IMG/VR virus record: IMGVR_UViG_3300033692_000022 | Source of the DNA: a virus | Lineage: Duplodnaviria; Heunggongvirae; Uroviricota; Caudoviricetes | Strand: one strand, 5' to 3' | DNA length: 64,000 bases | Shown here: positions 10,679-34,144 of the stretch, one piece after another | Layout of the letters: every line of letters starts with the position of its first letter | How positions within the stretch are numbered: position 1 is the stretch's first letter | Position numbers and translations under genes: made by a program | Notes under the pieces: model-generated | The model's input: only the letters and a program-made list of their open reading frames with translations | Told to the model about the DNA's origin: nothing | The model's database searches: none

Positions 10679-11464
10679 ATGACAGAATCTTTTAAGAAAG
10701 AAATTGAAGACGGAAAATACAGATTAAAGATTGGAAAGCAGGTTCCAGAAGACGATGTTAATATATGTTATCTTGATACCCCTCCTTTAAAATCTACCGA
10801 GAATGTGTATCTTACTGATCTGTCCGAAGGGATAGCAGAAAACAGCTGGGGCGCAAGCAGCAAAGAAAGAACAATGTATTCTGGAGAAGATGGTAAGTTA
10901 TATAATGAATCATTTACAGTAGACAGTGTACCAACTGAAGATGTGCTTGTAACAGATATCTATATGGATCAAGATAACCTTAATGGCCCACTATATTATA
11001 AATACAACCTCTTATATGAACACAGAGACTACACCACAGAGGTTACAGACAATATCAACATACTAAAAGAAGATGGGTCAAAAGTAAGTAAGGAAAGATA
11101 CAAAATTGAATACACCAAAACAGCAGAGGCGACTTACGAGGTCACTCTCTTTTTGTCGTTTAACTCAGATGAAAATAACACATACAGAGTAGAGTACGAC
11201 GCCTTAAATTTCGACAAAATAGTTAAAAGAGACCATACTGAAATACTTAATGCTGAAAAGATATTTAAAGAAACATCTATCAGTGAGGTAAGAGACCATA
11301 GTAATATAGGTAAGAAAATATACGCCAAGAAGGTAGACCAGGAAACAAACGGTTATAATATTTATGTTCCAGTTAAATCTTCAGAGACAGAAGGATCACT
11401 TCACAATAAAGAGATAAATGCTGACCTTCCATTACCATTTAAGTATGAGCAGTTCATTTTGTAA
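10679..11464 (+). CDS. N-terminal segment of a split vWA-domain structural protein (continues in the −1 frame at 11449)
   Basis: 261-aa ORF ending FIL*. The downstream vWA beta-1/MIDAS motif begins in the −1 frame with no start codon (see finding). Confidence 0.5.
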   Translation: MTESFKKEIEDGKYRLKIGKQVPEDDVNICYLDTPPLKSTENVYLTDLSEGIAENSWGASSKERTMYSGEDGKLYNESFTVDSVPTEDVLVTDIYMDQDNLNGPLYYKYNLLYEHRDYTTEVTDNINILKEDGSKVSKERYKIEYTKTAEATYEVTLFLSFNSDENNTYRVEYDALNFDKIVKRDHTEILNAEKIFKETSISEVRDHSNIGKKIYAKKVDQETNGYNIYVPVKSSETEGSLHNKEINADLPLPFKYEQFIL

Positions 11465-13407
11465 TAGATAAGTCTGGTTCTATGAGAGGGGAAGACCCCT
11501 GGAACCCTATGAGAAATGCTGTCAGATACTTTAGAGATTTAGAGAATGTAGACTGTAAGTTTAATGTTACCTATTTCGATAATGATGTTCGTACTGTTTA
11601 CGGTGGTTATGTTAGCCCTTCAACAATACTAGGCTGGAATAACCCTGGTATGGGAGGATCAACAGCTTTCTATGATGCGACCAATGCTGCAGTAAGTAAG
11701 ATGATAAATTATAATAACCTACCAGAAGACCATTCCAAAACTCTTAAAGGATGGAAAAAGGTAATAATAACCATGACTGACGGTCACGACAATGCAAGCA
11801 GCTGGAGACCGCATGATGTAAAAAATAGAGCAGATAAAAACATGGACTCATTAATCTATGGAATTGCCTTTGGTGGCGGGGCGGATACAGGTGCTGTTAA
11901 TGCCATATCACACAAACACAGAAGCGACTCCTCATTGGAGCAGGCTTTTATAGAGATAAGTGAAGAAGTTAAACCGGTACCATTTTCAGACAGGATACTT
12001 GTAGGTTCTGGTCTTGTATCGGAGAACAACAGCCCACTCAAACTAAGACAGTTGATGCTCAATATAACTGATGATATGATGATCGATTCTGTAGAGATAA
12101 CAATGAATGACACCAGTAATGACGTTCACACATTCTTCATGAATGAAAATAACGGCAATAGAGTGGGTACAAGTTTTGACGGCGAGGACCACAGTAAAAT
12201 ATACGCTAAAGACCTCTTGTTTTTCAATGACTCTAAAAGTAGTTGGGAATATGACACAGACAATAGAATATATGTTTACGCCGAGACTGACAAAAAGACA
12301 AGAATATACTCAAGGCAGTATGATGTAAAGATGAAGGAAAGCAAGGGTATATATGCAAGAATGCCAGACATAGATAACATATTCAAAAACTGGTATTTAG
12401 AAGTTCATAACGGCAGGTTCAATACTGAAGTAGTATCTGGAGATGAGATATACAGCTATAATTACTACCTACCAGAATACGAAAGACAATTAAGTGTTAC
12501 CGATGGCAACAACTCTATTAGGGTAAACCAAGAGATTCCAGAAATAATTGATAGAAACCAGCTAAAGCTGGCCCATAAGCCACTTGAAGTAATATCTGAA
12601 AGAGTAGACGGAAAAAGAAATATAAAAAATATAACAGTTAAGCAGGACGAACAGGAGATAGAAATTGAAGACTTCAATGCTGAAGGCGGAATACTGTTCT
12701 TAAAAGATAATATAGATCATACCAAAGATGTCAGAGTTAGTTATTCATACACTAATGAGTGGTATACCTATAAAGGATACTACGATGAAAAGAGAGATAA
12801 ATTTGTATCACTTGACTTAAATCCATTTAATGGTCATAAATACACCAAGAAGTTAGGTAACAATACTTATGTTGAAGAAGACACAAGAGACTTATTCAAT
12901 AAAGTTATCTACCTATATTTAAGACCCGCAGATACAACCAAGAAAAGACCAGGCCGGCCTTATGAAATAGTTTTAGGTAGTAAAAATGATTACACTATAT
13001 TCCATACAATAGGACATAAGTTAAGCGAGTCTGACAGTATGTATTCTGAAAATGTAAAAGAATTAGCCATGATATATCTAAAACCAAACTCTACACAGGA
13101 AGATATATCAGTCATAGATGGCAGAAAAAGAGGCGGCGGCCTAAAGGAAACCATAAACCAGGAGATTATCGAACAGATTAATCCAGAGTCTAATTACTAT
13201 TGGGATATCGGATACTTAGACGGTAAAGCATACCCTGGCAACTCTGTAATAATAGTCAAGCTACCCAAAGAGATATTAAAAGATTATGGAGGCAAATTTG
13301 AAACACAGGAAGTAGAAGAAATAATAGATGAACACATAGCTTATGGATCTTACTTTATCATTGAATATATAGATGACGAAGACTTCATAAGTGATTACGA
13401 GCTCTAG
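11449..13407 (+). CDS. von Willebrand factor A (vWA/MIDAS) domain virion protein. The frame is open from 11449, and the ORF track starts it at ATG 11482, which lies inside the domain.
   Basis: Translation from 11449 gives AVHFVIDKSGSMRGED...GGSTAFYDATNAAVSKM...KKVIITMTDGHDNAS. This contains the DxSxS, T and D residues of a MIDAS site. No ATG/GTG/TTG precedes the DKSGSM motif in this frame. Confidence 0.6.
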   Translation, partial: AVHFVIDKSGSMRGEDPWNPMRNAVRYFRDLENVDCKFNVTYFDNDVRTVYGGYVSPSTILGWNNPGMGGSTAFYDATNAAVSKMINYNNLPEDHSKTLKGWKKVIITMTDGHDNASSWRPHDVKNRADKNMDSLIYGIAFGGGADTGAVNAISHKHRSDSSLEQAFIEISEEVKPVPFSDRILVGSGLVSENNSPLKLRQLMLNITDDMMIDSVEITMNDTSNDVHTFFMNENNGNRVGTSFDGEDHSKIYAKDLLFFNDSKSSWEYDTDNRIYVYAETDKKTRIYSRQYDVKMKESKGIYARMPDIDNIFKNWYLEVHNGRFNTEVVSGDEIYSYNYYLPEYERQLSVTDGNNSIRVNQEIPEIIDRNQLKLAHKPLEVISERVDGKRNIKNITVKQDEQEIEIEDFNAEGGILFLKDNIDHTKDVRVSYSYTNEWYTYKGYYDEKRDKFVSLDLNPFNGHKYTKKLGNNTYVEEDTRDLFNKVIYLYLRPADTTKKRPGRPYEIVLGSKNDYTIFHTIGHKLSESDSMYSENVKELAMIYLKPNSTQEDISVIDGRKRGGGLKETINQEIIEQINPESNYYWDIGYLDGKAYPGNSVIIVKLPKEILKDYGGKFETQEVEEIIDEHIAYGSYFIIEYIDDEDFISDYEL

Positions 13408-13810
13408 AAAGGAGGATTCAATGCCTAAAAGCGACTATCCAAACAATATAGATAGATTCCCTAAAGCGATAGCAAATTCTGATGGGGTGGTCGATTTAAC
13501 CCCTGAAAACTTAAATAAAATACAGGAAGCTATAATGTCAGTACAAAATGAGTTAGGGGTAGAACCAAGTAAAGATAAAGAAGATGTCAGGTCAGTGCTC
13601 GAAAATATAATAGATACTAAAGTAACTAAAGGCACTCCGATGAATCTGAATATGGAGTTAGTTGAAGATGAGAACGGAGATCAGGTTATAGATTTATCAT
13701 TTTCATACGTAGACAACAAAAATTTAGAGTATTTTATTCTGGAAGTATGGGATGAAGAACGACAAAAATACGTACCCTATGATAATAAATTAGGGGTAAT
13801 AAGAAAGTAG
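13391..13810 (+). CDS. Hypothetical virion protein
   Basis: 139-aa ORF with ribosome-binding site AAGGAGGATTCAATG. No recognisable motif. Confidence 0.3.
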   Translation: MITSSRKEDSMPKSDYPNNIDRFPKAIANSDGVVDLTPENLNKIQEAIMSVQNELGVEPSKDKEDVRSVLENIIDTKVTKGTPMNLNMELVEDENGDQVIDLSFSYVDNKNLEYFILEVWDEERQKYVPYDNKLGVIRK

Positions 13811-13818
13811 GTGCTTAC

Positions 13819-14241
13819 ATGGAAGATTTAACTATTAAAAATCTGGATGCTAAAAAAATAAGGTTAAAATTTGGTGATGAAGCTATAGTAGCAACCAGGA
13901 AAAAATTAAATACAAAGCATGTAGGTGCCAAAAGGGTACGCATAAGAGCAGTAATCAATGGAGACAAAAAAGAATTTTGTTATTTTGGGAGGTTCAAACT
14001 CCCTGTAAAGGATAAAAACAAAGTTAGAATCAAAGGCAACAATGGTCAGTGGGTTGAAGGAAAAACGATCAACCTGCTCAAACCACCTACTATATCTTCT
14101 TCTACAGTAAGAAAACCATATTCTCCAAATCTTCAAGTGGAGGTGATTAATACTCCAATAAGGCCAGACACCCTATCTGTTTATAATGAAAAAGTATTGC
14201 AGCACCCCAGAAAAATAGAAACAAGTACCAAAAAAATATAA
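13819..14241 (+). CDS. Hypothetical basic virion protein
   Basis: 140-aa ORF, Lys/Arg-rich, with a TACATGG start context. Confidence 0.3.
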   Translation: MEDLTIKNLDAKKIRLKFGDEAIVATRKKLNTKHVGAKRVRIRAVINGDKKEFCYFGRFKLPVKDKNKVRIKGNNGQWVEGKTINLLKPPTISSSTVRKPYSPNLQVEVINTPIRPDTLSVYNEKVLQHPRKIETSTKKI

Positions 14242-14253
14242 GGAGTTGGTAAT

Positions 14254-15459
14254 ATGCCAAAAAGAACAAAATTAGTATTTGATAGAAACAGTGATGACAC
14301 ACAAAAGTACAATGTCTACAGAGGCAACCAGACAGGAGTTACAAGTTCTTCTGAGCTTGTAATGGAAATTTCCCAGCCAGCAGCACAGTCTGTTATTAAA
14401 GATGTAGTTGGAGAAACTCTTAGTGCAGACGCAGAATTTTTAGTCTATACAGCTGGTCACAAAAATATAATAAACGATGGAACAAATTATCCAGTTACAG
14501 TTTATGTTAATGGGACAGAACAAACAACAGGATTCACCATTAACTATTTACTCGGTAAAGTTACATTTGATGTAGCTTTAACAGTAAATGATGTAATTAC
14601 AATGGATTACAGTTATGACGCGGTAGAGGTTTTAGATGATGACGGTACACAGACTAATGTAACATTCTTAGGAACAGTAGCACAAGACTTAGCTGCTCCA
14701 GATATTCCTGCAAACCCAGGCATAGTTGGAGACGACGCCAATAACAAAGCGATAGTATCATGGGATGGAGTATTAGCAGATAACGGAAGTCAGTACTTTT
14801 ACAAAGTAGAAGCAGAAGATGAGGTAGGAAATAAATCTACATTAACTGCAGAAGTAGCAGCAGTATTAACTGAGGGACTTCATGCAAACCCTTATGTTCT
14901 TGAGAAATCAGAAGACGGAGGAAACACCTGGAGTATAGTAGGAGAATTTAGTACTACTTCCTATGAGGAGACAGGAGTAGATACTACTGCACCAGATGGA
15001 GTGGCTTCTTTAGTATCTACAGTTACAGAAGTTGGAGATCCATTAAAACCAGCTGTTCAGCTTACATGGCAAAACCCTGCTGATGACAATGAAACAATGT
15101 CTCTGACTTATAGAGTTAAATCACAGGATGCTAATGGGAATGTTTCTAGTCCAGGAGCTGCAGTTGGACCGGTTCCAGTATCAACAGGACTTAAAAGAGT
15201 ATTCATTAAGCGTAAGGTAGATGACGGAACTTACCCAACTAATAACGATACCTCTCTTGTAGTATTCGATTCTACAGATTTCACAAATCAATCTTTTGTT
15301 GATTTAGATGTAGCAGAAGATACAATATACAACTACTCAGTTTTTGTTGAAGATAATGCAGCGAACGTATCGGTTGCGGCTACAGTTCAGGCTTCAGTTG
15401 GAGACTTCACTGCTCCTGAAACAGTAACTGGATTAGCAGCTGAGGAAGTAACTATATAA
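14254..15459 (+). CDS. FN3/Ig-like repeat structural protein, possibly an abundant tail or decoration protein
   Basis: It carries several fibronectin-III-like modules (QYFYKVEAEDEVGNKSTL; LTYRVKSQDANGNVSSPG). A strong GC hairpin terminator follows, and its N-terminus is paralogous to the next gene. Ribosome-binding site AAGGAGTTGGTAATATG. Confidence 0.4.
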   Translation: MPKRTKLVFDRNSDDTQKYNVYRGNQTGVTSSSELVMEISQPAAQSVIKDVVGETLSADAEFLVYTAGHKNIINDGTNYPVTVYVNGTEQTTGFTINYLLGKVTFDVALTVNDVITMDYSYDAVEVLDDDGTQTNVTFLGTVAQDLAAPDIPANPGIVGDDANNKAIVSWDGVLADNGSQYFYKVEAEDEVGNKSTLTAEVAAVLTEGLHANPYVLEKSEDGGNTWSIVGEFSTTSYEETGVDTTAPDGVASLVSTVTEVGDPLKPAVQLTWQNPADDNETMSLTYRVKSQDANGNVSSPGAAVGPVPVSTGLKRVFIKRKVDDGTYPTNNDTSLVVFDSTDFTNQSFVDLDVAEDTIYNYSVFVEDNAANVSVAATVQASVGDFTAPETVTGLAAEEVTI

Positions 15460-15472
15460 TACTAAATAAATA

Positions 15473-15492
15473 GGCGGGGGCTTCCCCGCCTT
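15473..15492 (+). terminator. Rho-independent-like terminator hairpin (GGCGGGG-gctt-CCCCGCC)
   Basis: A 7–8 bp all-GC stem directly after the stop of the FN3-repeat gene, followed by a short TT. Confidence 0.5.
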
Positions 15493-15515
15493 AAGATACA
15501 TAAAGGAGTGATAAA

Positions 15516-16055
15516 ATGCCACTAGGTATAAGAATTTCATGGAATAAAAACAATGATGACACAGTAGAATACGGAGTCTGGAGGAGAACAGAGTCAACAG
15601 AACTCTCAGAAATAACAAGAGTGCCTCAACCTACAGATCAAACTAGCCCATCTTATAACGATGAAAATATAGATATAGCGGATCCAACAGCGCCTGGTAT
15701 TACAATAAATAGACCAACGACCACAAGTGCAACTGTAGAGATAACAACAGTATCTACAGATGCAGCAAATCCTGTTTATTACTATTCAATAAAATCATAT
15801 GATGAGGCCGGCAACAGCTCACCATTGTGTCCAGAGGTAAGTCTGCAGCCTTCAAATGCAATAGATAGATATGAATGGACACTAATAAATGATGCAGATT
15901 CAAGCACAGTAGACAGTGGAGTAATAGACCCACTTAATCCAGTATCAGCAGAGACAACACTAACAGCTGGAGAAACTTATCATTACGAAGTTAAAGCTGT
16001 AGATCTTGACGGAAACGAAAGTACATTAACTTCATCCGAGCCATTTACAGTATAA
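15516..16055 (+). CDS. FN3-like structural protein, paralog of the 14254 gene N-terminus
   Basis: ISWNKNNDDTVEYGVWRR aligns with FDRNSDDTQKYNVYRG of the upstream gene. YYYSIKSYDEAGNSSPL is an FN3-like strand motif. Confidence 0.4.
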   Translation: MPLGIRISWNKNNDDTVEYGVWRRTESTELSEITRVPQPTDQTSPSYNDENIDIADPTAPGITINRPTTTSATVEITTVSTDAANPVYYYSIKSYDEAGNSSPLCPEVSLQPSNAIDRYEWTLINDADSSTVDSGVIDPLNPVSAETTLTAGETYHYEVKAVDLDGNESTLTSSEPFTV

Positions 16056-16069
16056 GAGAGGTGAAATAA

Positions 16070-16615
16070 TTGACTACAGAATTTGAAAGACACTATGATA
16101 ATATAGGAGAAATTATAGATGCTCAAGACGTCAATGAGCTGCAAGATGTAATAAATATCAATGAACAAAATATCCAGATGTTAAGAGATGTTGATTTCGA
16201 AGATTTTTCCCTTTGGCTACTTAAAAACAGGGAGGAATTCAATCGTTTATGGATAGATACATTCAATGACAAGACTAAGATAGATGAAGTTGAAAGCTCA
16301 AAATTAATATACCTACCTAAAGATAGAATGGTAAAAGTCAGGAGAGATCAGGATTTTGCAGAGCTTTATTCTAAAGCCTATAATGATGATGAAAATATAA
16401 ATAGAGCTATCCTGCTAACACAGACCGCGGTGCATAATAGTGAAGATTTAATAAAATTTCAAATATCTATTAATGGTATGTCTTTTGAGGATATACAACC
16501 TAACGAGTTATTCGAGCCTGATAATATAGGTAATAGTTTTAAGTTAAAAGCGCTGTTTAACAAAGATAGTGAGAAAGGACCAGAGCTCTACAGATGGGCT
16601 TTGCTCTGGGGATAA
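16070..16615 (+). CDS. Hypothetical protein (TTG start)
   Basis: 181-aa ORF with GAGGTGAAATAATTG ribosome-binding site spacing. Confidence 0.3.
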   Translation: MTTEFERHYDNIGEIIDAQDVNELQDVININEQNIQMLRDVDFEDFSLWLLKNREEFNRLWIDTFNDKTKIDEVESSKLIYLPKDRMVKVRRDQDFAELYSKAYNDDENINRAILLTQTAVHNSEDLIKFQISINGMSFEDIQPNELFEPDNIGNSFKLKALFNKDSEKGPELYRWALLWG

Positions 16616-16638
16616 TATATTAAGGAAGGAGTGAAGGA

Positions 16639-17529
16639 ATGCCTCGGATACAAAAACTTATAGATGGTACATTTAAAAAAGTTGACAATAAAAGAGAAAG
16701 AGAACTACATGAAAAAATCGACCAGGAGATATTAGAAAGAATATCTGAAGATGATCGGATAGAGGATAAATTCACTAAAATAACAAATGATTTAGAGATA
16801 GATATAGATAATGTAGAAGAAGCACTTAACCAATTTATAATTGAACAAAATAATATAAATGATGAACTTAAAGATGAAATAGATACAGAAAGAAGTCAAA
16901 GACTTGAGGCAGATGACACACTCCAGTCCAATATAGATTCTGAAGAGAATGCTCGTAAATCAGAAGATCAAGCAATAAGGAATGCGATACAGAACGAAGC
17001 AGAAGAAAGAGCCTACGAAGACCAAAAACTTCATAATAAAATAGATGATGAGATATATGACAGAGAACAGGCAGATATAGAACTCAATGAAGTTATCAAC
17101 ACTGAAAGGTCCGAAAGAATAGAAGCTATAAACGATCTCGATTCCAGGCTAAGGCAGGAGATTGTTGATAGAGAAGACGCTGATAATTCTTTAGAGAAAA
17201 AAATAGAGCGCGAGACAAACGAAAGAAAACTTGATGTTAGAATCCTTAATCATAGAACAGATGAAGATACCATTCTTACAAATATGATAATGGATCTTGA
17301 CAGTGAGCTCCAATCTGAGACTAATGCAAGAGAAGCAGAAGACCAAGCACTGCATGCTAAGATAAACCAAGAAATAGCCGATAGAGAAAGTGATGTCTCA
17401 ACTCTTACAACAAATCTCGACAATGAAATACAAACTAGAGTGTCTGAAGTTAATAGACTTGATCAGAGAATAGATGATCATACTGATTCCAACAACTCAG
17501 ATCCGACAATAATCTACAGACTCAAATAG
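16639..17529 (+). CDS. Tail fiber coiled-coil repeat protein, N-terminal part of a split gene
   Basis: Acidic heptad-like repeats (LQSNIDSEENARKSEDQAIRNAIQNEAEERAYEDQ...). The same repeat continues in the −1 frame from 17487. Confidence 0.5.
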   Translation: MPRIQKLIDGTFKKVDNKRERELHEKIDQEILERISEDDRIEDKFTKITNDLEIDIDNVEEALNQFIIEQNNINDELKDEIDTERSQRLEADDTLQSNIDSEENARKSEDQAIRNAIQNEAEERAYEDQKLHNKIDDEIYDREQADIELNEVINTERSERIEAINDLDSRLRQEIVDREDADNSLEKKIERETNERKLDVRILNHRTDEDTILTNMIMDLDSELQSETNAREAEDQALHAKINQEIADRESDVSTLTTNLDNEIQTRVSEVNRLDQRIDDHTDSNNSDPTIIYRLK

Positions 17530-19064
17530 ATGAACTTGATACTATGCTATCGGATGAAGAAACTACAAGGTTTAATGCCGATAAGGCCTTGAGGGATGAC
17601 CTTGACGCTGAAGAGGCAGCAAGAATAGCCGGGGACAACAACCTACAGAACACAATAGACCAGTCAATAGATAATCTTCTGGCCAGAGAATTCTACGGGG
17701 TCGCAGAAGAGACACTCGGAACAGTAACTACTACAACATATGACTTAAATACATCTCAGGAAATAGTACAGGATGTAAGATATTTTGTAGTAATGAATAA
17801 TGACGGCACAGAGGTTATTGGAGATAGCGGCAGTCCAGTTAGTGTTGTAGACATATCTAATAAAACTATCACTTTTAGTGAAACTCCTAATCAAGATGTT
17901 GTTGTTCAGTTCGCAATCAAAAAAACATTAGGCACACTGCCTGCGGACGCACTAATAACTTATGATACCGTAGGTACTAAATTAGATGCAGATATTACCG
18001 AAGTTATAGGGGCCGCGTATTATGATGGGCGAAAGAATGTAGCAGATAACTTCTCACTGGATGTAAGAATAGAAAACGAGATAGAAGATAGAACCAACGC
18101 TGATAATTCTCTCCAAAGCAATATAGACTCTGAAGAGGCGGCAAGAATAGCAGCTGATAATACACTGCAGGATAATATAGATGCAGAAGAGGCGGCTAGG
18201 ATAGCAGCAGATAACGCCTTAGAGCAGACTATTGAAGACGAGGTACAAACAGCAATCACTCAGCTTCAGGCAGATATAGCGGCGGAAGAACAGGCCAGAA
18301 TAGATGCCGATAATGAACTGCGTAACACTATAGAAAATGAAGTCCAAACTGCAATAACACAAATGGAAGAAGACCTTGCGGCGGAAACAGCAGCCAGACA
18401 GCAGCAGATAGCAGACCTACAGGAACAAATAGATAATGATATACAGATAGCCATTGACCAGATGCAGTCAGATCTACAGGCCGAAAAGACAGCCAGACAA
18501 AATGCCGACGACGCATTACAGGCTCAAATAGATACACTTAATACTGAAGTAGCTTCTAAGTTTGATGACCTATATGATGACTTCTATGCTCACCACCACG
18601 ATTCTCAGTACGTAAATCAAGACGGAGACGAAATGACAGGAGACTTAAGTTTCTCTGCCGGTAAAGGAATAGAGTGGTATGAGAATACTGATGGGGCTGA
18701 AATCAAGTTTAACAGTGATAGCGATAGCGCCCAACAGTCTAATCTTGAGTTTAGAGTAAGAGACAACATGGATGAAGGCTTTAAGTTTATAGCATATAAC
18801 GATGGTGTAGACGTAGACGGCATAGAGCTAATGTATATGAATAAAGATAACTTTGATTATCGCGGCCATGAAATCTGGCATGCAGGAAACGATAGCCACA
18901 ACTCAGGTTTAAATGCAGATATGGTCGACGGAGAACACAAAACAGAAGTTAAAGATAATGCTAGAAAACAAACAAATGAATTGAGATTAGAGACTAGAAC
19001 TTCTGATCCAGCAAATGCTGAGGTGGGTAGAATATGGTTAAGAACAGACTTAGTACCAGAGTAA
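17487..19064 (+). CDS. Tail fiber coiled-coil repeat protein, C-terminal part, ending in a DGDEMTGDL-type fiber tip domain. The frame is open from 17487 and the track ATG is at 17544.
   Basis: Repeats DNSLQSNIDSEEAARIAADNTLQDNIDAEEAARIAADNALEQ are followed by HHHDSQYVNQDGDEMTGDLSF, a motif recurrent in phage fiber distal domains. Confidence 0.5.
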   Translation, partial: FQQLRSDNNLQTQIDELDTMLSDEETTRFNADKALRDDLDAEEAARIAGDNNLQNTIDQSIDNLLAREFYGVAEETLGTVTTTTYDLNTSQEIVQDVRYFVVMNNDGTEVIGDSGSPVSVVDISNKTITFSETPNQDVVVQFAIKKTLGTLPADALITYDTVGTKLDADITEVIGAAYYDGRKNVADNFSLDVRIENEIEDRTNADNSLQSNIDSEEAARIAADNTLQDNIDAEEAARIAADNALEQTIEDEVQTAITQLQADIAAEEQARIDADNELRNTIENEVQTAITQMEEDLAAETAARQQQIADLQEQIDNDIQIAIDQMQSDLQAEKTARQNADDALQAQIDTLNTEVASKFDDLYDDFYAHHHDSQYVNQDGDEMTGDLSFSAGKGIEWYENTDGAEIKFNSDSDSAQQSNLEFRVRDNMDEGFKFIAYNDGVDVDGIELMYMNKDNFDYRGHEIWHAGNDSHNSGLNADMVDGEHKTEVKDNARKQTNELRLETRTSDPANAEVGRIWLRTDLVPE

Positions 19065-19080
19065 TGGAGGTGAATTATAG

Positions 19081-22830: not shown

Positions 22831-23369
22831 AGATAGATATTAATGTCGAGGACAGTCAGTCAGGAGTAAAAAGTGTCGAATACAAATTCGACCACAGCAC
22901 TCATTACTCTGGAGACAACTTAAGAACTACTGGTACTCAGGATACCCTCTTTATAGAAGCCCACGGTGAATGGTATCTTCATATAAGAGCAGAGGACAAT
23001 GCCGGGAATGTTGTAAGACAGACATTCGGTCCTTATGTTAATTACTCGGACCCTAAAAGATATATGAAGATCCAGACACCCGGCGGCGAACAGGAAATAC
23101 CACTATATGAACTCAATCAAAGAGTAGACAACAGGCTGAGAATAAAAGCAGCAGATGAAGTGGTATGTATAGGATTAGTCCCACCAGATGATAAGAGGGC
23201 AACAGAAATAAGAGTTAAGATGCCTGAAGCAATATATGCAGTAGAAGGGAACAGAAATGTATTCAGATTCTCAGAGATCGATCCTAACTTAAGTAATGAC
23301 TTTACTCTTGGGGAAGATGAAATAACAATAGATACTCAAAGAGGATTCGACGGTGGAGAATTAGTATAA
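22776..23369 (+). CDS. C-terminal continuation of the 19081 fiber in the −1 frame. It includes a fourth Ig-like module, and there is no start codon before 23064.
   Basis: The frame is open from 22776. It encodes DINVEDSQSGVKSVEYKF...HGEWYLHIRAEDNAGNVVRQTF, the same module as in the upstream ORF, with 290 nt lacking ATG/GTG/TTG. Confidence 0.5.
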   Translation, partial: EHNGLYRYRQRYRNRNIIEIDINVEDSQSGVKSVEYKFDHSTHYSGDNLRTTGTQDTLFIEAHGEWYLHIRAEDNAGNVVRQTFGPYVNYSDPKRYMKIQTPGGEQEIPLYELNQRVDNRLRIKAADEVVCIGLVPPDDKRATEIRVKMPEAIYAVEGNRNVFRFSEIDPNLSNDFTLGEDEITIDTQRGFDGGELV

Positions 23370-23383
23370 ACTAGGAGGCAGAA

Positions 23384-23791
23384 ATGAGTATATTAAATAA
23401 CTTACCCAACTGGAATGCACAGTCAGATAGGGTTGTAGAACCAGATAACGATAAGAAAGCAGCTGGGTGGAGGCTCGGTGAAGAGCCACCTCCTGGTTAC
23501 TTTAACTGGTTCTGGAATCTCGTATCCGATTCATTAAATATTTTAGATACACATAATCACGATGATAGATATTACACCAAAGGTTACTTTGATTCTCACG
23601 ATCATGACAGTTTATATTACAGAAAAGATTACATCGATTCTCACGAGCACGACGACAGATATTACACAAAAAATGATGTTAATAGTATGCTCGGGGCCAC
23701 CTATATTGAAAGCCCAACTGTTGGTAATATATTAGTATCAGACACCGAGCCAACTAATGCAGAAGAAAACGACATATGGATAAAGTTATAA
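23384..23791 (+). CDS. Short tail fiber protein: conserved N-terminal anchor domain plus HxHD-RYY histidine repeats
   Basis: LPNWNAQSDRVVEPDNDKKAAGWRLGEEPPPGYFNWFWNLVSDSLNILDTHNHDDRYYTK is shared with five other fiber genes. It also has repeats SHDHDSLYYRK and SHEHDDRYYTK. Confidence 0.45.
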   Translation: MSILNNLPNWNAQSDRVVEPDNDKKAAGWRLGEEPPPGYFNWFWNLVSDSLNILDTHNHDDRYYTKGYFDSHDHDSLYYRKDYIDSHEHDDRYYTKNDVNSMLGATYIESPTVGNILVSDTEPTNAEENDIWIKL

Positions 23792-23804
23792 AGGAGGCAG
23801 TAAA

Positions 23805-25667
23805 TTGGGATATATAACACCAGATAAATCACCGGGTATATACATGGACCCGATTACTGTCAACTTTAGTGTTGATAGCAGGGTAGTAAATATAGCAGAA
23901 ACTCAGGATGGCAGCAACCCAACAATAGCAAAATATATAGCATATGATAATCTAAACCCACCTAATCCATTCATAGCGACCGTACAGGACGGCAGGGGTA
24001 ATGTTCTGTTCGATGGTGGATTTCCAAAATACTACAATATGAGAGTAAATTCTTCCTGGACTTCATTTTCTCAACTTAATGATACATTTAAGTATTTTCA
24101 TAATGCTTTAGATTGGATAGCAAACGATGATAAGGTATCAGAAGGTAATCGTAAGATGTTATTTCTTGGTGATTCAAACCCTGGAGAATCTTACAACATC
24201 AAACAAACAGGCGGCAGTGATTTTAAAACATCTATAGAAACAATGTGTACTACTGGTAACTGGGACCCTACCTATCTGACAAGAGAAGATTTCAGCGGCG
24301 GCCAAATCGATTTAAGTTATGCTGATTTAGAGCCTTATGTTGGCGTATTCCTGATGTCGAGTAGGCATACATCTAATAGATATATAACTCAATCAACTGT
24401 AGATAATCTATTGGCTTTTAGAGAAGCCGGTAACGGTATGTTTATCATAACAGACCATGGTTCTAGTGCAGACAACGGTTTTTATAGAACTGCTAATTTC
24501 ATAGCTGAAGAACTTGGGGCTCAATTTTTAGGATATTATAATAGATCACCTGTTAATGTTGGTTTCTTAATAGATAACTACGGTAATCATCCTTTATGGT
24601 CTGGTATGGATAGGAGTGGATATGTCCACGCTGGAAGTTCGGAGTCTGAAATAATTGTAGATGAAACACCAACTACTACAACAGCAGACTCTCTTACTGT
24701 AAGTGAACAGGGTTTTAAGACAGCAAGATTCTTAATAGAGCTCGATACAGGAGAAAAGGTATTTGAAACATATTCCTACGGATTGAATGCTGGAGACCCT
24801 ATTACTTTCAATAACGATATTCAAAATGGAGAGCTTAAAATAGGATTCGGCAGAACTATAGATTTAGATTTCGATATAAATTTAGGAATAATGGACAGCG
24901 CTTCAGGGCTAGTAAGAAGGAACAGCGATGTAATAGCTCAGTGGTCAAAAGACAGCGGCGGAATGACAACAGAATGGTTTACCGAAAGTGGTAACAGTAC
25001 CATTAAGGTAGATGATGGGGACTCAATAAAGGTAGCCTTACAGTCTCCAGTCTATTATGCAGAGTCTTTTACTATTAATGCAGCACCTCGAACTTCGACA
25101 GCCATCGACATAAACCTCGAAGATAAGACAAGTAAATACATTTCACTAAGCTGGACCTATGATAGCAGGATAGAACTAGACCATCTCGAGCTTATCTTTT
25201 TAAAAAGCGACGGATCACAGATAGATATAGATGATGACGGTACATTAGAAGATAGGTTAAACCTCAATAAAAGCCTATCATTTAGTGCAAGTAATCTTGA
25301 GCCGGCAACAGAATATAAGTTCAAACTAAGAGTATATGATGTTAACGGCGGCAGTTTAGACAGCAGCTATTATACAGCTAAAACAAACGGAGTACTTAAG
25401 ATACTTGTCGATAATACCTACAAGATACCACGCAACGCTCTAGTAAAAAAAGGAACAGGCTGGTCGAATTTTACAACTCAAATAAAGAATAACGGAGAGT
25501 TTGAGGAAATCGACATAGGGCCTACGATACAAACTTCCATGTTTACTACTGACATGTGGACAGAGTTTTCAAAAGAGGTGCGGGCAATCCACCTGTTAGA
25601 TAATGACTCTGATCTATATGGCAGCAGCCTTGATATTATAGATGTAATAGACTCCTATGGAATATAG
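23805..25667 (+). CDS. Tail protein paralog A, part 1: N-terminal hydrolase-like domain (GDS / TDHG motifs), FN3 module, beta-rich region
   Basis: TTG start after ribosome-binding site AAGGAGGCAG. It is approximately 75% identical over its N-terminal 260 aa to the 27431 ORF. It contains LFLGDSNPGES and FIITDHGSSADNGF. Confidence 0.45.
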   Translation: MGYITPDKSPGIYMDPITVNFSVDSRVVNIAETQDGSNPTIAKYIAYDNLNPPNPFIATVQDGRGNVLFDGGFPKYYNMRVNSSWTSFSQLNDTFKYFHNALDWIANDDKVSEGNRKMLFLGDSNPGESYNIKQTGGSDFKTSIETMCTTGNWDPTYLTREDFSGGQIDLSYADLEPYVGVFLMSSRHTSNRYITQSTVDNLLAFREAGNGMFIITDHGSSADNGFYRTANFIAEELGAQFLGYYNRSPVNVGFLIDNYGNHPLWSGMDRSGYVHAGSSESEIIVDETPTTTTADSLTVSEQGFKTARFLIELDTGEKVFETYSYGLNAGDPITFNNDIQNGELKIGFGRTIDLDFDINLGIMDSASGLVRRNSDVIAQWSKDSGGMTTEWFTESGNSTIKVDDGDSIKVALQSPVYYAESFTINAAPRTSTAIDINLEDKTSKYISLSWTYDSRIELDHLELIFLKSDGSQIDIDDDGTLEDRLNLNKSLSFSASNLEPATEYKFKLRVYDVNGGSLDSSYYTAKTNGVLKILVDNTYKIPRNALVKKGTGWSNFTTQIKNNGEFEEIDIGPTIQTSMFTTDMWTEFSKEVRAIHLLDNDSDLYGSSLDIIDVIDSYGI

Positions 25668-26824
25668 GACACTGCAGACTTAATATAACAGAACCACCAC
25701 CTCTTGTAGCAAACGATGACTCATTTGAGATATACGAGGGTGGATATATAAATATTTATAAATCTCAGATGTTAGACAATGATTACGATGAAAGCGGGAA
25801 CGAACCAATCGAAATCATAGGTTTCTCTGGTGTTACTGGAGGAACACTAACCGAGTACGACAACTACATTAGATTCGATGTAACAAGTCAGGTAGGAGAA
25901 CCTGCAGAGTTTAAATATACAATAACTAACGCAGTAGGCATAGAAACTACAGCCTATGTAAAGTTAATTATTAAAAAGGGACTTATTGCAGGAATAGATA
26001 ATACTGATTCATATAAAGATATCGAAAAGACCATTCCTATTTCAACCCTCGACATAACAGACATTTCAGAAAACCCACCAATTAAGTTAATAGGTGTTAC
26101 AGATCCAAGCGGCGGAACAGTAACCTTTGACGATTATAACATCTATCTTACCTCAACAGCTGCGGCTGGCAGTAATATTTCATTCAATTATACAGTGCGA
26201 AATGATATTAATCTTACAGATACAGGAACTGTTAATGTGAAAGTTATGCCTACTCCTCAGATACAAACAGCTGATGATACATTCGAAGTTACCCAGGGTA
26301 ATCAGATATTGATTTCTAAATCTGGACTCACCAATAATGATACAGATGAAGGAGGATATTACCCACTAACAGTAACCAATGTATACAACGTAACAGGTGG
26401 AACACTTGATGTAAGCGGAGATACTATTACATTTACTTCTACAAGTCTTGCGGGAGAAGCCGCAGGTTTTAAGTATGATGTAGAAAACACTCAGGGCGTA
26501 ACTCAGACAGGAAATGTATATATCACTGTTAATCCACTTCCAGCCGTAGACTCCTTAATTTTTAGCGACGCACAAACAACCCAGGATAAGCTAAACGAAT
26601 ATACTCCTGATAGTATGCAGGACGTATTTACAAGCTGGTATAGATTCTCTCATCAAGGCGGGAATATACAGGTCAACCCTCTTACTATGTATGACGGCAC
26701 TACTCAATACGATTTATATAGCGAAAATATATGGAAGTACCACGCCGATGAAGATAGAATAGCCTGTCAGCAGAATACTCCTCAGCATGTTGGCTTTCTT
26801 CGCCGGGTGGAGATGATGACATGA
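25634..26824 (+). CDS. Tail protein paralog A, part 2, continuing part 1 in the −1 frame. The track ATG is at 25769.
   Basis: The frame is open from 25634 and encodes NIGHCRLNITEPPPLVANDDSFEIYEGG. This aligns to YIGHCEIKTSQTPNLVAMDDSFEVYEGG of the 28206 ORF, with no start codon upstream of 25769. Cadherin-like or Ig-like repeats follow. Confidence 0.45.
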   Translation, partial: YYRCNRLLWNIGHCRLNITEPPPLVANDDSFEIYEGGYINIYKSQMLDNDYDESGNEPIEIIGFSGVTGGTLTEYDNYIRFDVTSQVGEPAEFKYTITNAVGIETTAYVKLIIKKGLIAGIDNTDSYKDIEKTIPISTLDITDISENPPIKLIGVTDPSGGTVTFDDYNIYLTSTAAAGSNISFNYTVRNDINLTDTGTVNVKVMPTPQIQTADDTFEVTQGNQILISKSGLTNNDTDEGGYYPLTVTNVYNVTGGTLDVSGDTITFTSTSLAGEAAGFKYDVENTQGVTQTGNVYITVNPLPAVDSLIFSDAQTTQDKLNEYTPDSMQDVFTSWYRFSHQGGNIQVNPLTMYDGTTQYDLYSENIWKYHADEDRIACQQNTPQHVGFLRRVEMMT

Positions 26825-27411
26825 TCGGTATAGTTTTAGCCTATACTGAAACTTCTAATCCTTATGATGAACATACACTCATAGCTCAAAGAACTCACGG
26901 GGGGATAGGCGGAGGCGAATGGGCTATAATTTATAATAAATCAAAATCTGGGGATAGTGTGATAATAAACGATAGCATATCTGGTGATGATATAAGTGGG
27001 GGTTGGAGTGGAGATCGCACAAGAGTAAGAGCTGAGAGAGAAGGAAATATCATAAAAGTATATGCTTCTCCAATGAATTCAACTACTCTTGATCCAAATT
27101 CAATGTTCGAAATAGATTTAAGCTCAGATAGTAGACTCCACAAATTTATGGACGGAGGATCATACGGGTATTGTTGTTTATCACAGGACAGATCAACATT
27201 TACCGATATACAGTTCGAAGGTGGATTAGACAAATCCATAATCTTAGATATTGAAAATAATATAGTCTGGGAATATAGCTTCGAACAAAGCCAATGGATA
27301 GATACAGGAAGAACTATTCAGGACGAAATAGGATATGTAAGAGAGGTATATAATCCAAACACTGGTGATAGATACCTTGTTAAAGAAAACGAAATAATCA
27401 AAATGACTTAA
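26758..27411 (+). CDS. Tail protein paralog A, part 3, continuing part 2 in the −1 frame. The track ATG is at 26821.
   Basis: Upstream in the same frame, SPGGDDDMIGIVLAYTE aligns with SSNGDNDVIGLVIAFDRD of the 28206 ORF. The C-terminal YVREVYNPNTGDRYLVKENEIIKMT is nearly identical to the paralog B C-terminus. Confidence 0.45.
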   Translation, partial: NSLSAEYSSACWLSSPGGDDDMIGIVLAYTETSNPYDEHTLIAQRTHGGIGGGEWAIIYNKSKSGDSVIINDSISGDDISGGWSGDRTRVRAEREGNIIKVYASPMNSTTLDPNSMFEIDLSSDSRLHKFMDGGSYGYCCLSQDRSTFTDIQFEGGLDKSIILDIENNIVWEYSFEQSQWIDTGRTIQDEIGYVREVYNPNTGDRYLVKENEIIKMT

Positions 27412-27430
27412 GGAAAAGGAGGGGAATTTT

Positions 27431-28228
27431 ATGGGATACGTAATACCAGATAAACAACCTGGAATATATAAAGAACCATTTACTGTAGATTTTAATGTAG
27501 ATAGTAGTGTATCAAATGTAGTAGACACTCAAGATGGAAGCAATCCGACCATAGCAAAGTATATAGCATATGACAATTTAAACCCGCCAAATCCATTTAT
27601 AGCAACAGTTCAAGATGGTAAGGGTAATGTATTATTCGATGGTGGCTTCCCTAAGTACTATAATCACAAATGTGATACATCTTGGAGTTCGTTTTCCGAC
27701 CTTAATAACACCTTTAAGTATTTTTATAATGCTTTGAATTGGATAGCAAATGAAGAAAAAGTAGCTGAAGGGAATCGCAAAATACTTTTTATAGGAGATG
27801 CTATTCCAGGCGAGCCTTACAATATAAAAGAAACTGGCGGTAGTGATTTTAAAACATCAATAGAAACAATATGTAGAGTTGGGAATTGGAACCCTACTTA
27901 TAAGATAAGGACTGATTTTCCTAATAATCAAATAGATTTAAGCTATACAGACTTAGAACCTTATGTAGCGGTATTTCTAATGTCAAGTAGACACACTAGC
28001 ACTAAACATATCACAGATAGTACAGTAAATAACATGCTTGCCTTTAGAGAAGCAGGCAACGGTATATTCATGATTACCGATCATGGATCAAGTGCAGATA
28101 ATGGTTTTTATAAAACTGCTAATTACATTGCAGAAGAACTTGGTGCACACTTCATTGGTGATTATGATAGAACTCCAGTTAACGTAGGCTACCTTATCGA
28201 TAATTATGGCAACCATCCATTGTGGTGA
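27431..28228 (+). CDS. Tail protein paralog B, part 1 (hydrolase-like N-terminal domain)
   Basis: Ribosome-binding site AAGGAGGGGAATTTTATG. It matches paralog A residues 1–265 closely (IAKYIAYDNLNPPNPFIATVQDG identical). It ends at NYGNHPLW*, where paralog A continues. Confidence 0.45.
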   Translation: MGYVIPDKQPGIYKEPFTVDFNVDSSVSNVVDTQDGSNPTIAKYIAYDNLNPPNPFIATVQDGKGNVLFDGGFPKYYNHKCDTSWSSFSDLNNTFKYFYNALNWIANEEKVAEGNRKILFIGDAIPGEPYNIKETGGSDFKTSIETICRVGNWNPTYKIRTDFPNNQIDLSYTDLEPYVAVFLMSSRHTSTKHITDSTVNNMLAFREAGNGIFMITDHGSSADNGFYKTANYIAEELGAHFIGDYDRTPVNVGYLIDNYGNHPLW

Positions 28229-31200
28229 GACTCCTATATCTACCAGCACAGACCCTCTGGTAGTTGATCAGTCAGGCTATAAAACAGCAAGGTTTTTGAT
28301 AGAGCTAGACAATGGAGAAACTAAATTCGAAAGTTATTCTTATGGGTTAAATACTGAAGAGCCGATTGTATTTAATCACAGCCTAATAGATAATAAATTG
28401 GATTTAGGACTTAAGCGAGATTTCAATTTAGATTTCAGTATAGTACTAGGAGTGATGGACAGCGCCAACGGGTTTATTAAAAGAAATAACGAAGTAGTTG
28501 GCCAGTGGTCGAAAGACCAGACTTCTTTTGATAAGACCTGGTTTACCGATAGCGGCACCAACAATATTAAAGTAGAACTAGGAGATTTAATAGAAATAAC
28601 ATTAGAAGATCCTTTGTATTACAGTAAATCAATGACAATAGATGGTAAAGAGCCTATCTTAAATACGTCTCCGCAATCTAGTGGTAACTATGTGGCTCTT
28701 GAATGGGATGTTAGTGATGGCTCACAGGATTTCACATATATGCTTCACAAAAAGAAGTCCTCAGATAGTGTATTCCAAACTATACCAGCTAAAGAAAACC
28801 TTAAGATACTTAATGTATATCCAGAAAATGGGGTAAGTGAAACAATAACCTTCACAAACTGGAAAGGAGAAACTACGACAACCTTAAAATCTGCCTCCCT
28901 AAAGAAATGGATGGAAGAACCAAATAACACACATTCAAAAGGATGGGGTAAAGGCCTTATAGATGTCGATATAGTTTCATTACTGGACTTTAATAATTCA
29001 CCAGACAGTTATCTTAAGACTAATGGCAGTTATGACTATGATGTTGTAGTATTTGGAACCTGGGATTGTAATGGAGATTGCTCAAGCGGTGGAGATACTA
29101 GCGCAGCTGCGGCAGCAAGCATAGAAACTTTCATCAAGACGGGCAGGGGTGTTCTACTCGGTCATGATACATTACACAAAAACCATCCTAATTTCAATAG
29201 TCTTGTTAGTTATTTTAATGTTACTTTAGATACAACGGGTATAGGATATACAGAACTTGAAATAACTAAAAAAGGATTACTCACCAACTATCCCTGGTAT
29301 ATAGGAGATATCGGAGATAAACTATCTATTCCCATGGCACATGTAACCAATCAGATGGCGCATGGAGATGTATGGTTTAAATTTACCGATGACACCTGGG
29401 GTGGTTATGACTATGTTGCTAATGACCTAACAAGAAATTTTTATCTTACTACATGGAATAATACTGCCTTAATTCAGACCGGTCACAGTGATGCTCAGGC
29501 GACTTCTGATGAACAGAAACTACTTGCTAACACACTATTTTATCTAGGTCAGGTTACAACCGCAACTAGCTGGAATGATATGTCCGGGCAGGATCTCGCC
29601 GGGCCAGAAAAACCAGTCATAAATAACGTAAAAATAAACCAAGACACTAAGAAAATAGAAATAGATTACAGTTCTCCAAATGATAATGGAACCACATATG
29701 ACTACTACGTTACTGCAAAAGGTAGTGAAGGATTAACAACCCAAACCAACACTTCTACTTGTACTATAAAAACAAATATTGCCGGTTATTCAATATTGGT
29801 AGATGACAGTCCAAGTAGTGTGCCCAATAACGATATAAACACTACAGAAACTTCATATGATTTGGAACATGAAAAATATGATAATTTCTATGTCCATATT
29901 GCAGCAGTAGATAATGCAGGAAACATATCAAAAACCTCACACTATCATTATACAGACAATACCGCTCCTGATTTAGATTTAACACAAAAAATATCAGAGT
30001 GGACACCTACAGAAGAAACTATAGTTGCTGAAGCTACTGATATAGGGTCTGGGGTTAGCAGAATACAACTCCCTAACGGTGAGTGGGTTAATCAATCAAA
30101 AGTAGAATTTAAAGCCACATCAAATGGTGATTATACTTTCACTGCAGAAGATTATACCGGCAACAGAACAACAAAGACTATTACCGTATACGGAGTTGGA
30201 CCAGAAAGTAATCCATTAATAAATTTAAAAATAACAGAAGTTACAAGTAGTACCATAGACCTTAGATGGGAAATATCAGAAACCATAGATGTAGACTATA
30301 TAAATTTAATGTTCCTCAAAAAAGACGGAGAAGAGTTTAAAAATATAGATATTAATGGTGACGGCTCTATAGATGATTATCTAAATATAAACGATGCAAC
30401 TTCATACAGTGTTAATAAACTCGAGCCCAGAACAGAATATTACTTTAAAATAATAGTCTATGACAATGACCAAACTCAGATGAGCAGTGCTTTATTGTCG
30501 GCAAAAACAAAAGGGCTAATAAAGGTAAATAAGAATGGCAGTTTCAAAATAGCAAAAGATGTACTCGTTAAAAAGAATAATGACTGGGAGTCCTTTAGCG
30601 GTAAAATAAAGAAGGACGGTAAACAGGTTAAGGTAGATATAGGTACTACAATTAAAACAAATCTATACGAAGAAGATGTCTGGCCGGGCTTCGAAAAAGA
30701 AATAAGGGCCATTCACTTATTAGAAGATGATAGTGATATATATGGAGATACTGATCTTAATATTGTCGATATCAAAAACGTATACGGAGGGGATGCCGAA
30801 TTCGTAGGAAGCGATTCTCTGGTAGAAACATCAGTAAACTTTAGAAATAATGCTGAGATAGGAGAAACTGCTGGTTTTACTTATGTAGTAGAAAACTCCA
30901 GAGGTAGAAGATATATCGGGCATTGTGAAATAAAGACATCTCAAACTCCAAACTTAGTAGCAATGGATGACTCGTTTGAAGTTTATGAAGGCGGATTTGT
31001 TGATATATATAAGTCGCAAATACTAGCCAATGATTATGATACAGAAAATAATACTCCAATAGAAATAGTAGATGTATTCGATGCAAAAGGTGGGACTCCT
31101 ACTGTATATGATAATTATATTAGATTCCAGGTGAATGATGAAATTGGAGATCCTGCTCAATTTAGATATACAATCAGAAACTCAATAGGTCAAGAAACAA

Positions 31201-33325: not shown

Positions 33326-33355
33326 AAACTAAATTAAGAAAGAGGAAGTGATAAA

Positions 33356-34129: not shown

Positions 34130-34144
34130 ATAGGGGGAATTAGA

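What the first reader, a model, noticed from the sequence alone, without database searches (positions are those of the whole stretch)
10679..28235. Systematic pattern: five one-base-short frame breaks in 17 kb of tail genes, all at short A/T runs, all −1
**What the sequence shows**
- Five breaks: 11455–61, about 17497–17506, about 22815–22827, 25658–25663 and 26795–26803.
- All convert the downstream frame by −1, i.e. one base missing.
- All sit in A or T runs of only 2–4 nt.
- Much longer homopolymers inside the same ORFs remain in frame, for example the 8 As at 17922.

**Interpretation**
- Random long-read indel error would preferentially hit long runs.
- The observed pattern is equally compatible with a polishing artefact and with biology.
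- Biological options are programmed −1 frameshifting, transcriptional slippage, or recent pseudogenisation of redundant fiber paralogs.
- All the affected genes are large, repeat-rich structural genes.
Basis: inference. Interest (0 to 1): 0.7.

Follow-up and report, generated by a model that had tools for sequence, protein, structure and literature searches.

The report
Block deletions, not one-base frameshifts
The five "one-base" frame breaks are five of eight clean 43–124-base blocks missing from this one record of a jumbo-phage tail-fibre region; every other public assembly of the same phage has them, so this is a flaw or defective variant, not programmed frameshifting.

Summary

- **Identity to a reference.** The window equals ENA contig ERZ27245728:k141_29228, positions 133722–198232, base for base, once eight blocks are removed (43, 78, 52, 52, 54, 124, 46 and 62 nt; 511 nt in total).
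- **Why five look like −1.** One is 3n+2, a missed +1 break at 28225/28226. Two are in frame and so invisible.
- **Other assemblies.** All other independent ENA, Logan and JGI assemblies keep the blocks and encode intact genes of 923, 851, 1464, 1258 and 1775 aa. Diverged orthologues and paralogues conserve the blocks tested.
- **No recoding or mutational signal.** There is no slippery heptamer, long homopolymer, RNA structure, microhomology or boundary motif, and no SNP or small indel anywhere in 64 kb.
- **Source.** The broken ORFs match the gene calls of a 134,508-nt JGI/IMG contig, evidently the source.

Frameshifting and transcriptional slippage are refuted. The best explanation is an assembly-stage artefact confined to the fibre module. 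The rival is a real, non-viable deletion haplotype.

The parts
11448..11449 (+). Deletion junction 1: 43 nt (AGTTGATATAAGCGGATTTAAGCGCTCAGAGCATAAAGGTATT, encoding EVDISGFKRSEHKGI) absent. Splits the 923-aa VWA-domain structural gene into 10679–11464 and 11449/11482–13407.
   Evidence: Alignment with four independent contigs. Exact reconstruction. Intact P0001/P0106 of 923 aa.
17251..17252 (+). Deletion junction 2: 78 nt absent, in frame (26 aa of coiled coil). Placement is ambiguous by 1 nt.
17501..17502 (+). Deletion junction 3: 52 nt absent (3n+1). Splits the 851-aa coiled-coil fibre gene into 16639–17529 and 17487/17544–19064.
22820..22821 (+). Deletion junction 4: 52 nt absent (3n+1). Splits the 1464-aa Ig/FN3-rich structural gene into 19081–22830 and 22776–23369.
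   Evidence: Intact P0115 of 1464 aa.
23276..23277 (+). Deletion junction 5: 54 nt absent, in frame (18 aa, YYGRSVFNTYHGMGYGQF), in the C-terminal part of the same 1464-aa gene.
   Evidence: Segment present in L006, L007, L008 and L009.
25661..25662 (+). Deletion junction 6: 124 nt absent (3n+1; 42 aa, the second half of an Ig-like domain). Splits the 1258-aa fibre gene X1 into 23805–25667 and 25634–26824.
   Evidence: Segment conserved in the 68%-identical orthologue P0005 and in paralogue X2.
26793..26794 (+). Deletion junction 7: 46 nt absent (3n+1; GFVSTDKYKNYVHEAT). Splits X1 again into 25634–26824 and 26758/26821–27411. JGI contig Ga0373123_459 (L008) ends exactly at base 26793.
28225..28226 (+). 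Deletion junction 8: 62 nt absent (3n+2; SGMSRSDSISAGGSESEVVVN). It gives a +1 frame change that splits the 1775-aa fibre gene X2 into 27431–28228 and 28188/28206–32696. Placement is ambiguous by 1 nt.
   Evidence: Intact P0006, P0113 and P0114 of 1775 aa.
10679..32696 (+). Tail or baseplate-fibre module holding the five damaged large structural genes: VWA 923 aa, coiled-coil fibre 851 aa, Ig-rich 1464 aa, and paralogous fibres X1 (1258 aa) and X2 (1775 aa). Seven small undamaged genes lie between them (13391–16615, 23384–23791).

Best explanation
The breaks are not a recoding system. This record, evidently a 134,508-nt JGI/IMG metagenome contig, is the same phage genome as ENA contig ERZ27245728:k141_29228. 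It lacks eight short blocks of ordinary, conserved coding sequence in five large tail-fibre or baseplate genes.

The most likely cause (inference) is a defect introduced when this record was assembled. Pieces of a fragmented fibre module may have been joined end to end while the short stretches between them were skipped. Equivalently, large gaps in a draft backbone may have been beyond the reach of later polishing. Read literally, the record truncates five structural genes. The real phage almost certainly makes the intact proteins.

Shown: the identity, the eight deletions, their sizes and positions, the intact genes elsewhere, and the absence of frameshift signals. Inferred: that the cause is technical rather than a real DNA haplotype.
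For: - **Exact identity.** Removing the eight blocks from the ENA contig reproduces the window exactly, 64000 of 64000 bases. There are therefore no substitutions and no small indels in 64 kb.
- **Blocks present elsewhere.** Every other assembly covering them has the blocks. These come from 3 ENA MEGAHIT samples, 5 Logan runs and 2 JGI samples. Block 1 is seen in L002–L005 and L019–L022, and blocks 2–8 in L006–L009.
- **Blocks are conserved protein sequence.**
  - P0002 (48% identity) covers the whole fused VWA protein.
  - P0005 (68% identity) and paralogue X2 keep blocks 6 and 7.
  - Paralogue X1 keeps the equivalent of block 8.
  - Other strains' X2 proteins keep block 8 unchanged.
- **The spectrum looks unselected and unnatural.**
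  - Only 2 of 8 deletions are in frame, which is the random expectation.
  - Every deletion is at least 43 nt, with nothing smaller.
  - Microhomology at the joins is 0–1 nt and there is no filler sequence.
  - There are no flanking repeats and no shared boundary motif.
- **Clustering.** All eight lie in the fibre module (P = 6e-4). This is the stretch where contigs from other samples stop. They end at stitched-reference coordinates 16887–20998 (about window 12927–16995) and resume near 29000 or later.
- **Public source record.** The broken ORFs (261, 641, 1249, 607, 351, 196, 265 and 1496 aa) are the gene calls of one JGI/IMG contig of 134,508 nt. The lesions are therefore in a public record and are unique to it.
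- **Absent elsewhere.** The deletion-1 junction string is absent from the three DNA collections.
Against: - I could not see the source record's metadata, assembler or reads, so the technical cause is inferred, not shown.
- A de Bruijn-graph assembler normally needs the junction k-mers to be present in reads. That would make the deletions real DNA.
- JGI contig Ga0373123_459 (L008) ends exactly at the left edge of deletion 7. My rough estimate of a chance coincidence is 0.005. This implies a real assembly-graph branch at that base in some sample. A genuine deletion haplotype would predict it as well as a skipped graph segment would.
- The blocks are not visibly variable among the strains available. 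The idea that strain variation fragmented the graph at exactly these places therefore has no direct support.
Confidence: 0.66

Rival explanations
1. A real deletion haplotype. A non-viable derivative of the phage, for example a decaying prophage or phage-plasmid maintained by a host, suffered eight blunt deletions in its fibre module. A possible route is repeated nuclease attack (such as CRISPR self-targeting with clustered spacers) followed by end-joining repair. Reading frame would not be under selection.
For: - The lesions are in a public JGI/IMG record with its own gene calls.
- L008 ends exactly at the deletion-7 boundary, as expected if intact and deleted forms coexist in a sample.
- The deletions are clustered in one module and are frame-agnostic.
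- The genome carries a tyrosine integrase at 52845–53762, so a maintained lysogenic or episomal state is possible.
Against: - Eight deletions against zero substitutions and zero small indels in 64 kb is far from any ordinary mutational spectrum.
- There is no microhomology or filler at any join, unlike replication slippage or typical end joining.
- No boundary motif exists.
- No other assembly from about ten samples shows any of the deletions.
- Five structural genes are destroyed at once.
Confidence: 0.28
2. Programmed −1 ribosomal frameshifting or transcriptional slippage joins the ORF halves.
For: The upstream and downstream open frames overlap by 16–67 nt, and three downstream halves have no usable start codon.
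Against: - No X XXY YYZ heptamer lies in frame in any overlap.
- The A/T runs are 2–4 nt, far shorter than slippage tracts.
- No unusual RNA structure was found.
- Relatives at 100%, 98–99%, 68% and 48% identity encode single uninterrupted ORFs.
- A frameshifted product would lack 14–42 conserved residues, including half an Ig-like domain.
- One break needs +1, not −1.
Confidence: 0.02
3. The window is the original state, and the other assemblies carry eight short insertions such as small mobile elements.
For: None beyond the bare length difference.
Against: - The blocks restore long ORFs and complete domains.
- They are unique sequence with no copies elsewhere.
- They are conserved in orthologues and in anciently diverged paralogues.
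Confidence: 0.01
4. Single-base homopolymer indel errors from long-read sequencing, or from its polishing.
For: The frame breaks resemble such errors when only the window is read.
Against: - The differences from the reference are 43–124 nt, and none is 1 nt.
- All 26 long homopolymers are identical to the short-read assembly.
Confidence: 0.01

Closest known systems
Programmed −1 frameshifting in phage tail genes (lambda G/GT type), and frameshift-appended Ig-like domains on phage structural proteins (own knowledge: Xu, Hendrix and Duda 2004; Fraser et al. 2006)
   Same: Overlapping ORFs in tail genes. The downstream part lacks its own start. In two cases Ig-like domains lie downstream of the break.
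   Different: There is no slippery sequence and the two-frame arrangement is not conserved. Relatives have one continuous ORF with extra sequence at the site. One break has the opposite sign.
Local mis-joins or unfilled gaps in metagenome assemblies of strain-variable phage tail-fibre regions
   Same: The lesions are unique to one record, confined to the module where other assemblies fragment, blunt-ended and frame-agnostic. The rest of the sequence is perfect.
   Different: Usual collapses occur between repeats, and none is present here. Usual scaffolding gaps are marked with N, and there are none. The exact pipeline step is unknown.
Pseudogenisation of a defective prophage by deletion
   Same: Several structural genes are inactivated by deletions, and an integrase is present in the genome.
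   Different: No accompanying substitutions or small indels, no microhomology, and 100% identity to contigs from other samples.
Translational bypassing (T4 gene 60, 50-nt coding gap; own knowledge)
   Same: Segments of about 50 nt make the difference between a broken and a continuous reading frame.
   Different: The direction is reversed. Here the extra segments are translated in frame in the intact genomes and are simply absent from this record. There is no take-off and landing codon pair and no stop-containing gap.

Membership tests
Programmed −1 ribosomal frameshift site | Slippery heptanucleotide X XXY YYZ in the upstream frame within the overlap | tested here: not met
   A scan of all five overlaps found none.
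Programmed −1 ribosomal frameshift site | The two-frame arrangement is conserved in related genomes | tested here: not met
   Relatives at 48–100% identity have single ORFs of 923, 851, 1464, 1258 and 1775 aa.
Programmed −1 ribosomal frameshift site | Stimulatory RNA structure at or near the shift site | tested here: inconclusive
   Only the deleted blocks with ±15 nt of reference sequence were folded. Seven of eight were unremarkable and one gave z = −3.9. The window sequence downstream of each junction was not folded separately.
Transcriptional slippage site | Homopolymeric A or T tract of about 8–9 nt or more at the frame change | tested here: not met
   The runs at the junctions are 2–4 nt. 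The long runs elsewhere lie in intact frames.
Homopolymer indel sequencing or polishing error | A 1–2-nt length difference from an accurate reference, located in a homopolymer | tested here: not met
   The differences are 43–124 nt. There are no 1-nt differences in 64 kb.
Repeat-collapse mis-assembly or replication-slippage deletion | Direct repeats or microhomology flanking the lost segment | tested here: not met
   Each deletion can slide by only 0–1 nt. No repeat copies of the segments exist.
Translational bypass element (T4 gene 60 type) | A non-coding gap with matching take-off and landing codons and a stop after take-off, present in the genome | tested here: not met
   In the intact contigs the segments are read in frame without stops. 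The window simply lacks them.
Diversity-generating retroelement variable region | A similar template repeat elsewhere, with variability among strains | tested here: not met
   No second copy exists in the 72.9 kb examined. Segments 1, 6, 7 and 8 are invariant or conserved among strains. The rest of the 202-kb genome was not examined.
Assembly-stage artefact unique to one record | The lesion is absent from independent assemblies of the same genome | tested here: met
   All eight blocks are present in every other contig covering them. The broken ORFs occur only on one JGI/IMG contig.
Assembly-stage artefact unique to one record | Raw reads of the source sample contradict the junctions | not testable with these tools

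The most novel reading that the evidence does not exclude
The eight deletions are real DNA. A naturally occurring derivative of a jumbo, integrase-carrying phage lost eight blunt, frame-agnostic 43–124-nt blocks, all inside its tail-fibre module, while acquiring no other change. That would point to an undescribed targeted process, for example clustered nuclease or CRISPR self-targeting of a resident prophage followed by microhomology-independent end joining. The exact coincidence of a JGI contig end with the deletion-7 boundary is the one observation that hints the junction exists in reads.
Probability: 0.22. Interest if true: 0.6.

Novelty: not a real feature. Interest (0 to 1): 0.15.

Why it matters
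- **For annotation.** It removes a false lead. Five apparent −1 frameshifts in phage tail genes would have been a striking recoding cluster, but none is a recoding site. The eleven ORF fragments in 10679–32696 should be annotated as five genes, taking the intact sequence from ERZ27245728:k141_29228.
- **For method.** A frame break read from a single sequence cannot distinguish a one-base slip from a 3n+1 block deletion. A single comparison with a near-identical assembly settles it.
- **If the deletions are real.** The interest would shift to whatever process makes blunt, module-restricted deletions in a resident phage.

Tried and rejected
- **No close phage in the annotated collection.**
  - Megablast of the region against 50,697 phage records gave no match.
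  - tblastn found only distant jumbo-phage relatives at 30–40% identity, phiKZ-like phages and Salicola SCTP-2.
  - A 96-aa junction peptide was too short and gave no hit.
- **IMG/VR searches.** A search with protein A and two DNA strings found nothing, so the phage is not there.
- **Deletion-1 junction string.** It is absent from the metagenome, genome and viral contig collections.
- **Unproductive scans.**
  - A 20-mer left of deletion 7, scanned in JGI metagenome contigs, gave only unrelated chance matches.
  - A 37-mer from an undamaged gene gave nothing in GTDB genomes, so the host is unidentified.
- **Exact look-ups of the window's truncated ORFs.** The 261-, 265-, 506- and 196-aa ORFs were not in the gene-position index. 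I first read this as meaning the variant exists nowhere. The cluster look-up then showed they are on a JGI/IMG contig missing from that index. P0004 was also not on record.
- **Planted or random corruption.** Rejected, because the broken ORFs are IMG gene calls and the lesions cluster (P = 6e-4).
- **Hypervariable patches dropped by a consensus step.** Not supported, because the blocks are invariant in the strains available.
- **Restriction-fragment loss.** Rejected, because the two ends of each deletion share no site.
- **Introns, inteins or mobile insertions.** Rejected, because the blocks are unique, in-frame, conserved coding sequence.
- **Literature.** A search for the sample accessions found no paper.
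Full report
**1. What the window shows**

All long ORFs in 1–52 kb are on the + strand. These are not ordinary gene junctions.

- After 11449 the new frame reads AVHFVIDKSGSM. The first ATG (11482) is the M of the VWA MIDAS motif, and the Pfam VWA match starts at residue 2 of the open frame.
- After 22776 there are 96 open codons with no ATG, GTG or TTG.
- After 25634 a Big_9/cadherin domain starts upstream of the first ATG.
- One PHROG profile (phrog_21285) is matched at positions 801–906 by the ORF ending at 26824, and at 913–1095 by the next ORF.

The observation of five breaks, each into the −1 frame, therefore stands.

**2. A sixth break and paralogue evidence**

The window holds two paralogous giant fibre genes.

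- X1 consists of 23805–25667, 25634–26824 and 26758–27411.
- X2 consists of 27431–28228 and 28188–32696.

The single 1502-codon frame of X2 is collinear with all three X1 pieces. X1 in turn runs uninterrupted across the X2 split. The junction at about 28226 is therefore a sixth break, and it goes to the +1 frame.

At the X1 break at 25661, X2 has 42 extra residues, and at the X2 break X1 has about 21. This was the first sign that more than one base is missing.

**3. Orthologues**

A conceptual fusion of the VWA gene found P0001 (923 aa, 98% identity, 100% coverage) and P0002 (916 aa, 48% identity, 100% coverage).

Four contigs from different samples and assemblers carry the 923-aa gene. Aligning them showed that the window lacks exactly 43 nt between 11448 and 11449, with identical flanks.

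An exact look-up of the small intact gene 23384–23791 returned a 202,621-nt MEGAHIT contig, ERZ27245728:k141_29228. Its genes in this region are intact, at 851, 1464, 1258 and 1775 aa.

**4. The whole window against that contig**

I stitched four overlapping loci of the contig and ran BLAST against the window. Nine collinear blocks resulted, all 100% identical. The single apparent mismatch lies in the 5-nt alignment overlap at deletion 2. The blocks are separated by eight gaps in the window.

| Gap after window position | Missing length (nt) | Length class |
|---|---|---|
| 11448 | 43 | 3n+1 |
| 17251 | 78 | in frame |
| 17501 | 52 | 3n+1 |
| 22820 | 52 | 3n+1 |
| 23276 | 54 | in frame |
| 25661 | 124 | 3n+1 |
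| 26793 | 46 | 3n+1 |
| 28225 | 62 | 3n+2 |

Deleting the eight segments (511 nt) from contig positions 133722–198232 reproduces the window exactly, 64000 of 64000 bases.

- The 3n+2 deletion is the missed +1 break.
- The two in-frame deletions cannot be seen from the window alone.

**5. Nature of the missing segments**

- They are unique coding sequence with no second copy in the 72.9 kb examined.
- They are read in frame in the intact genes.
- Segment 1 is identical in eight contigs from at least five samples.
- Segments 6 and 7 are conserved in a 68%-identical orthologue and in paralogue X2.
- Segment 8 is unchanged in two other strains.
- The joins have 0–1 nt of microhomology and no filler.
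- No k-mer is enriched at the 16 boundaries.
- Folding energies are unremarkable for seven of eight segments.

**6.

- No X XXY YYZ heptamer lies in frame in any overlap.
- The A/T runs are 2–4 nt. Since 78% of random 9-nt intervals in this window contain AA or TT, their presence carries no information.
- All 26 long homopolymers match the short-read contig. One-base long-read error and its polishing are therefore excluded.
- A frameshifted product would lack 14–42 conserved residues.

**7. Where the window comes from**

Exact look-ups of four of the window's truncated ORFs found nothing in the gene-position index.

The 90%-identity clusters of the intact proteins, however, contain members of 261, 641, 1249, 607, 351, 196, 265 and 1496 aa. 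All lie on one JGI/IMG contig of 134,508 nt. By eye, their C-terminal ends and lengths match the window's fragments; I did not run a programmatic comparison.

The deletions therefore belong to a public record and were not introduced afterwards. No other record has them.

**8. Artefact or real haplotype?**

For an artefact:
- Zero SNPs and zero small indels beside eight deletions, all of them at least 43 nt.
- A random frame distribution, with 2 of 8 in frame.
- Blunt, featureless joins.
- Simultaneous destruction of five structural genes.
- Absence from about ten other samples.
- Confinement to the fibre module (P = 6e-4). Other samples' contigs end at stitched-reference coordinates 16887–20998 (about window 12927–16995) and resume near 29000 or later.

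A plausible route, which is inference only, is end-to-end joining of graph pieces with the short intervening pieces dropped. Another is large gaps in a draft backbone that polishing could not repair.

Against an artefact:
- I cannot see the assembler or the reads.
- De Bruijn assemblers normally need read support for a junction.
- JGI contig Ga0373123_459 (L008) ends exactly at the left edge of deletion 7. My rough chance estimate is 0.005. This shows a real graph branch at that base in some sample, and either explanation predicts it.

I put the artefact at about 0.66, a real non-viable deletion haplotype at about 0.28, and everything else at a few per cent in total.

**9. Context**

- The proteins' nearest annotated relatives are virion structural proteins of phiKZ-like jumbo phages and Salicola phage SCTP-2 gp99, a single 1735-aa ORF.
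- The reference contig exceeds 200 kb and carries an integrase, a sigma-factor-like gene, a DnaB-type helicase and ribonucleotide reductase genes.
- The host is unknown.

**10. Verdict**

There is no novel recoding, and interest is low. The one open question is whether the eight junctions exist in reads.

Noticed in passing
window 26793 / L008 6313 (JGI 3300033746 Ga0373123_459): An independent 6313-nt JGI contig that contains segments 4, 5 and 6 intact terminates at exactly the base before deleted segment 7. This suggests a real assembly-graph branch at that position. It remains unexplained.
   Followed up: partly
window 23805–27411 and 27431–32696: Two tandem paralogous giant fibre genes. 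Their first 265 residues are 77% identical and the rest about 40–45%. X2 has an additional insert of about 500 aa. The N-terminal domain matches phrog_11065 and virion structural proteins of phiKZ-like jumbo phages.
   Followed up: partly
window 23384–23791, 32708–33325, 33356–34129, 34716–35543, 35544–36374, 36388–38367: A family of six paralogous genes sharing an N-terminal module of about 120 aa. Two carry a Pfam Gp10_C domain in the reference gene table. They are interleaved with the fibre genes and may be fibre adaptors or baseplate attachment proteins.
   Followed up: no
window 52845–53762 (− strand): A tyrosine integrase (Phage_integrase plus SAM-like domains) is the only clear minus-strand gene in the window. 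It lies between a PriCT_1-domain gene and a DnaB-like helicase. An integrase is unusual for a genome of more than 200 kb whose structural genes resemble jumbo phages.
   Followed up: no
window about 12927–16995 and 33000–40000 (ends of L002–L004, L011–L013, L021, L022): Contigs of this phage from other samples repeatedly stop just before or inside the fibre module and restart after it. Two Logan contigs from different runs end at the same base, stitched-reference coordinate 16887. The module appears to be strain-variable and hard to assemble.
   Followed up: partly
window 39848–46393: Three consecutive large genes of 828, 674 and 675 aa share weak N-terminal similarity (23–26% identity). They are probably another paralogous structural gene set.
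   Followed up: no
L014 16439–19006 (beyond the window's 3' end): The ribonucleotide reductase alpha gene seems to be interrupted by an HNH/NUMOD4 homing-endonuclease ORF. This may be an intron or a split gene.
   Followed up: no
L011 1–565 versus reference: In sample ERZ27245802 the first Gp10_C gene after X2 is 261 aa instead of 205 aa. It contains a patch copied from another paralogue (93% identity to stitched-reference coordinates 40082–40382). This is evidence of recombination among the paralogues.
   Followed up: no
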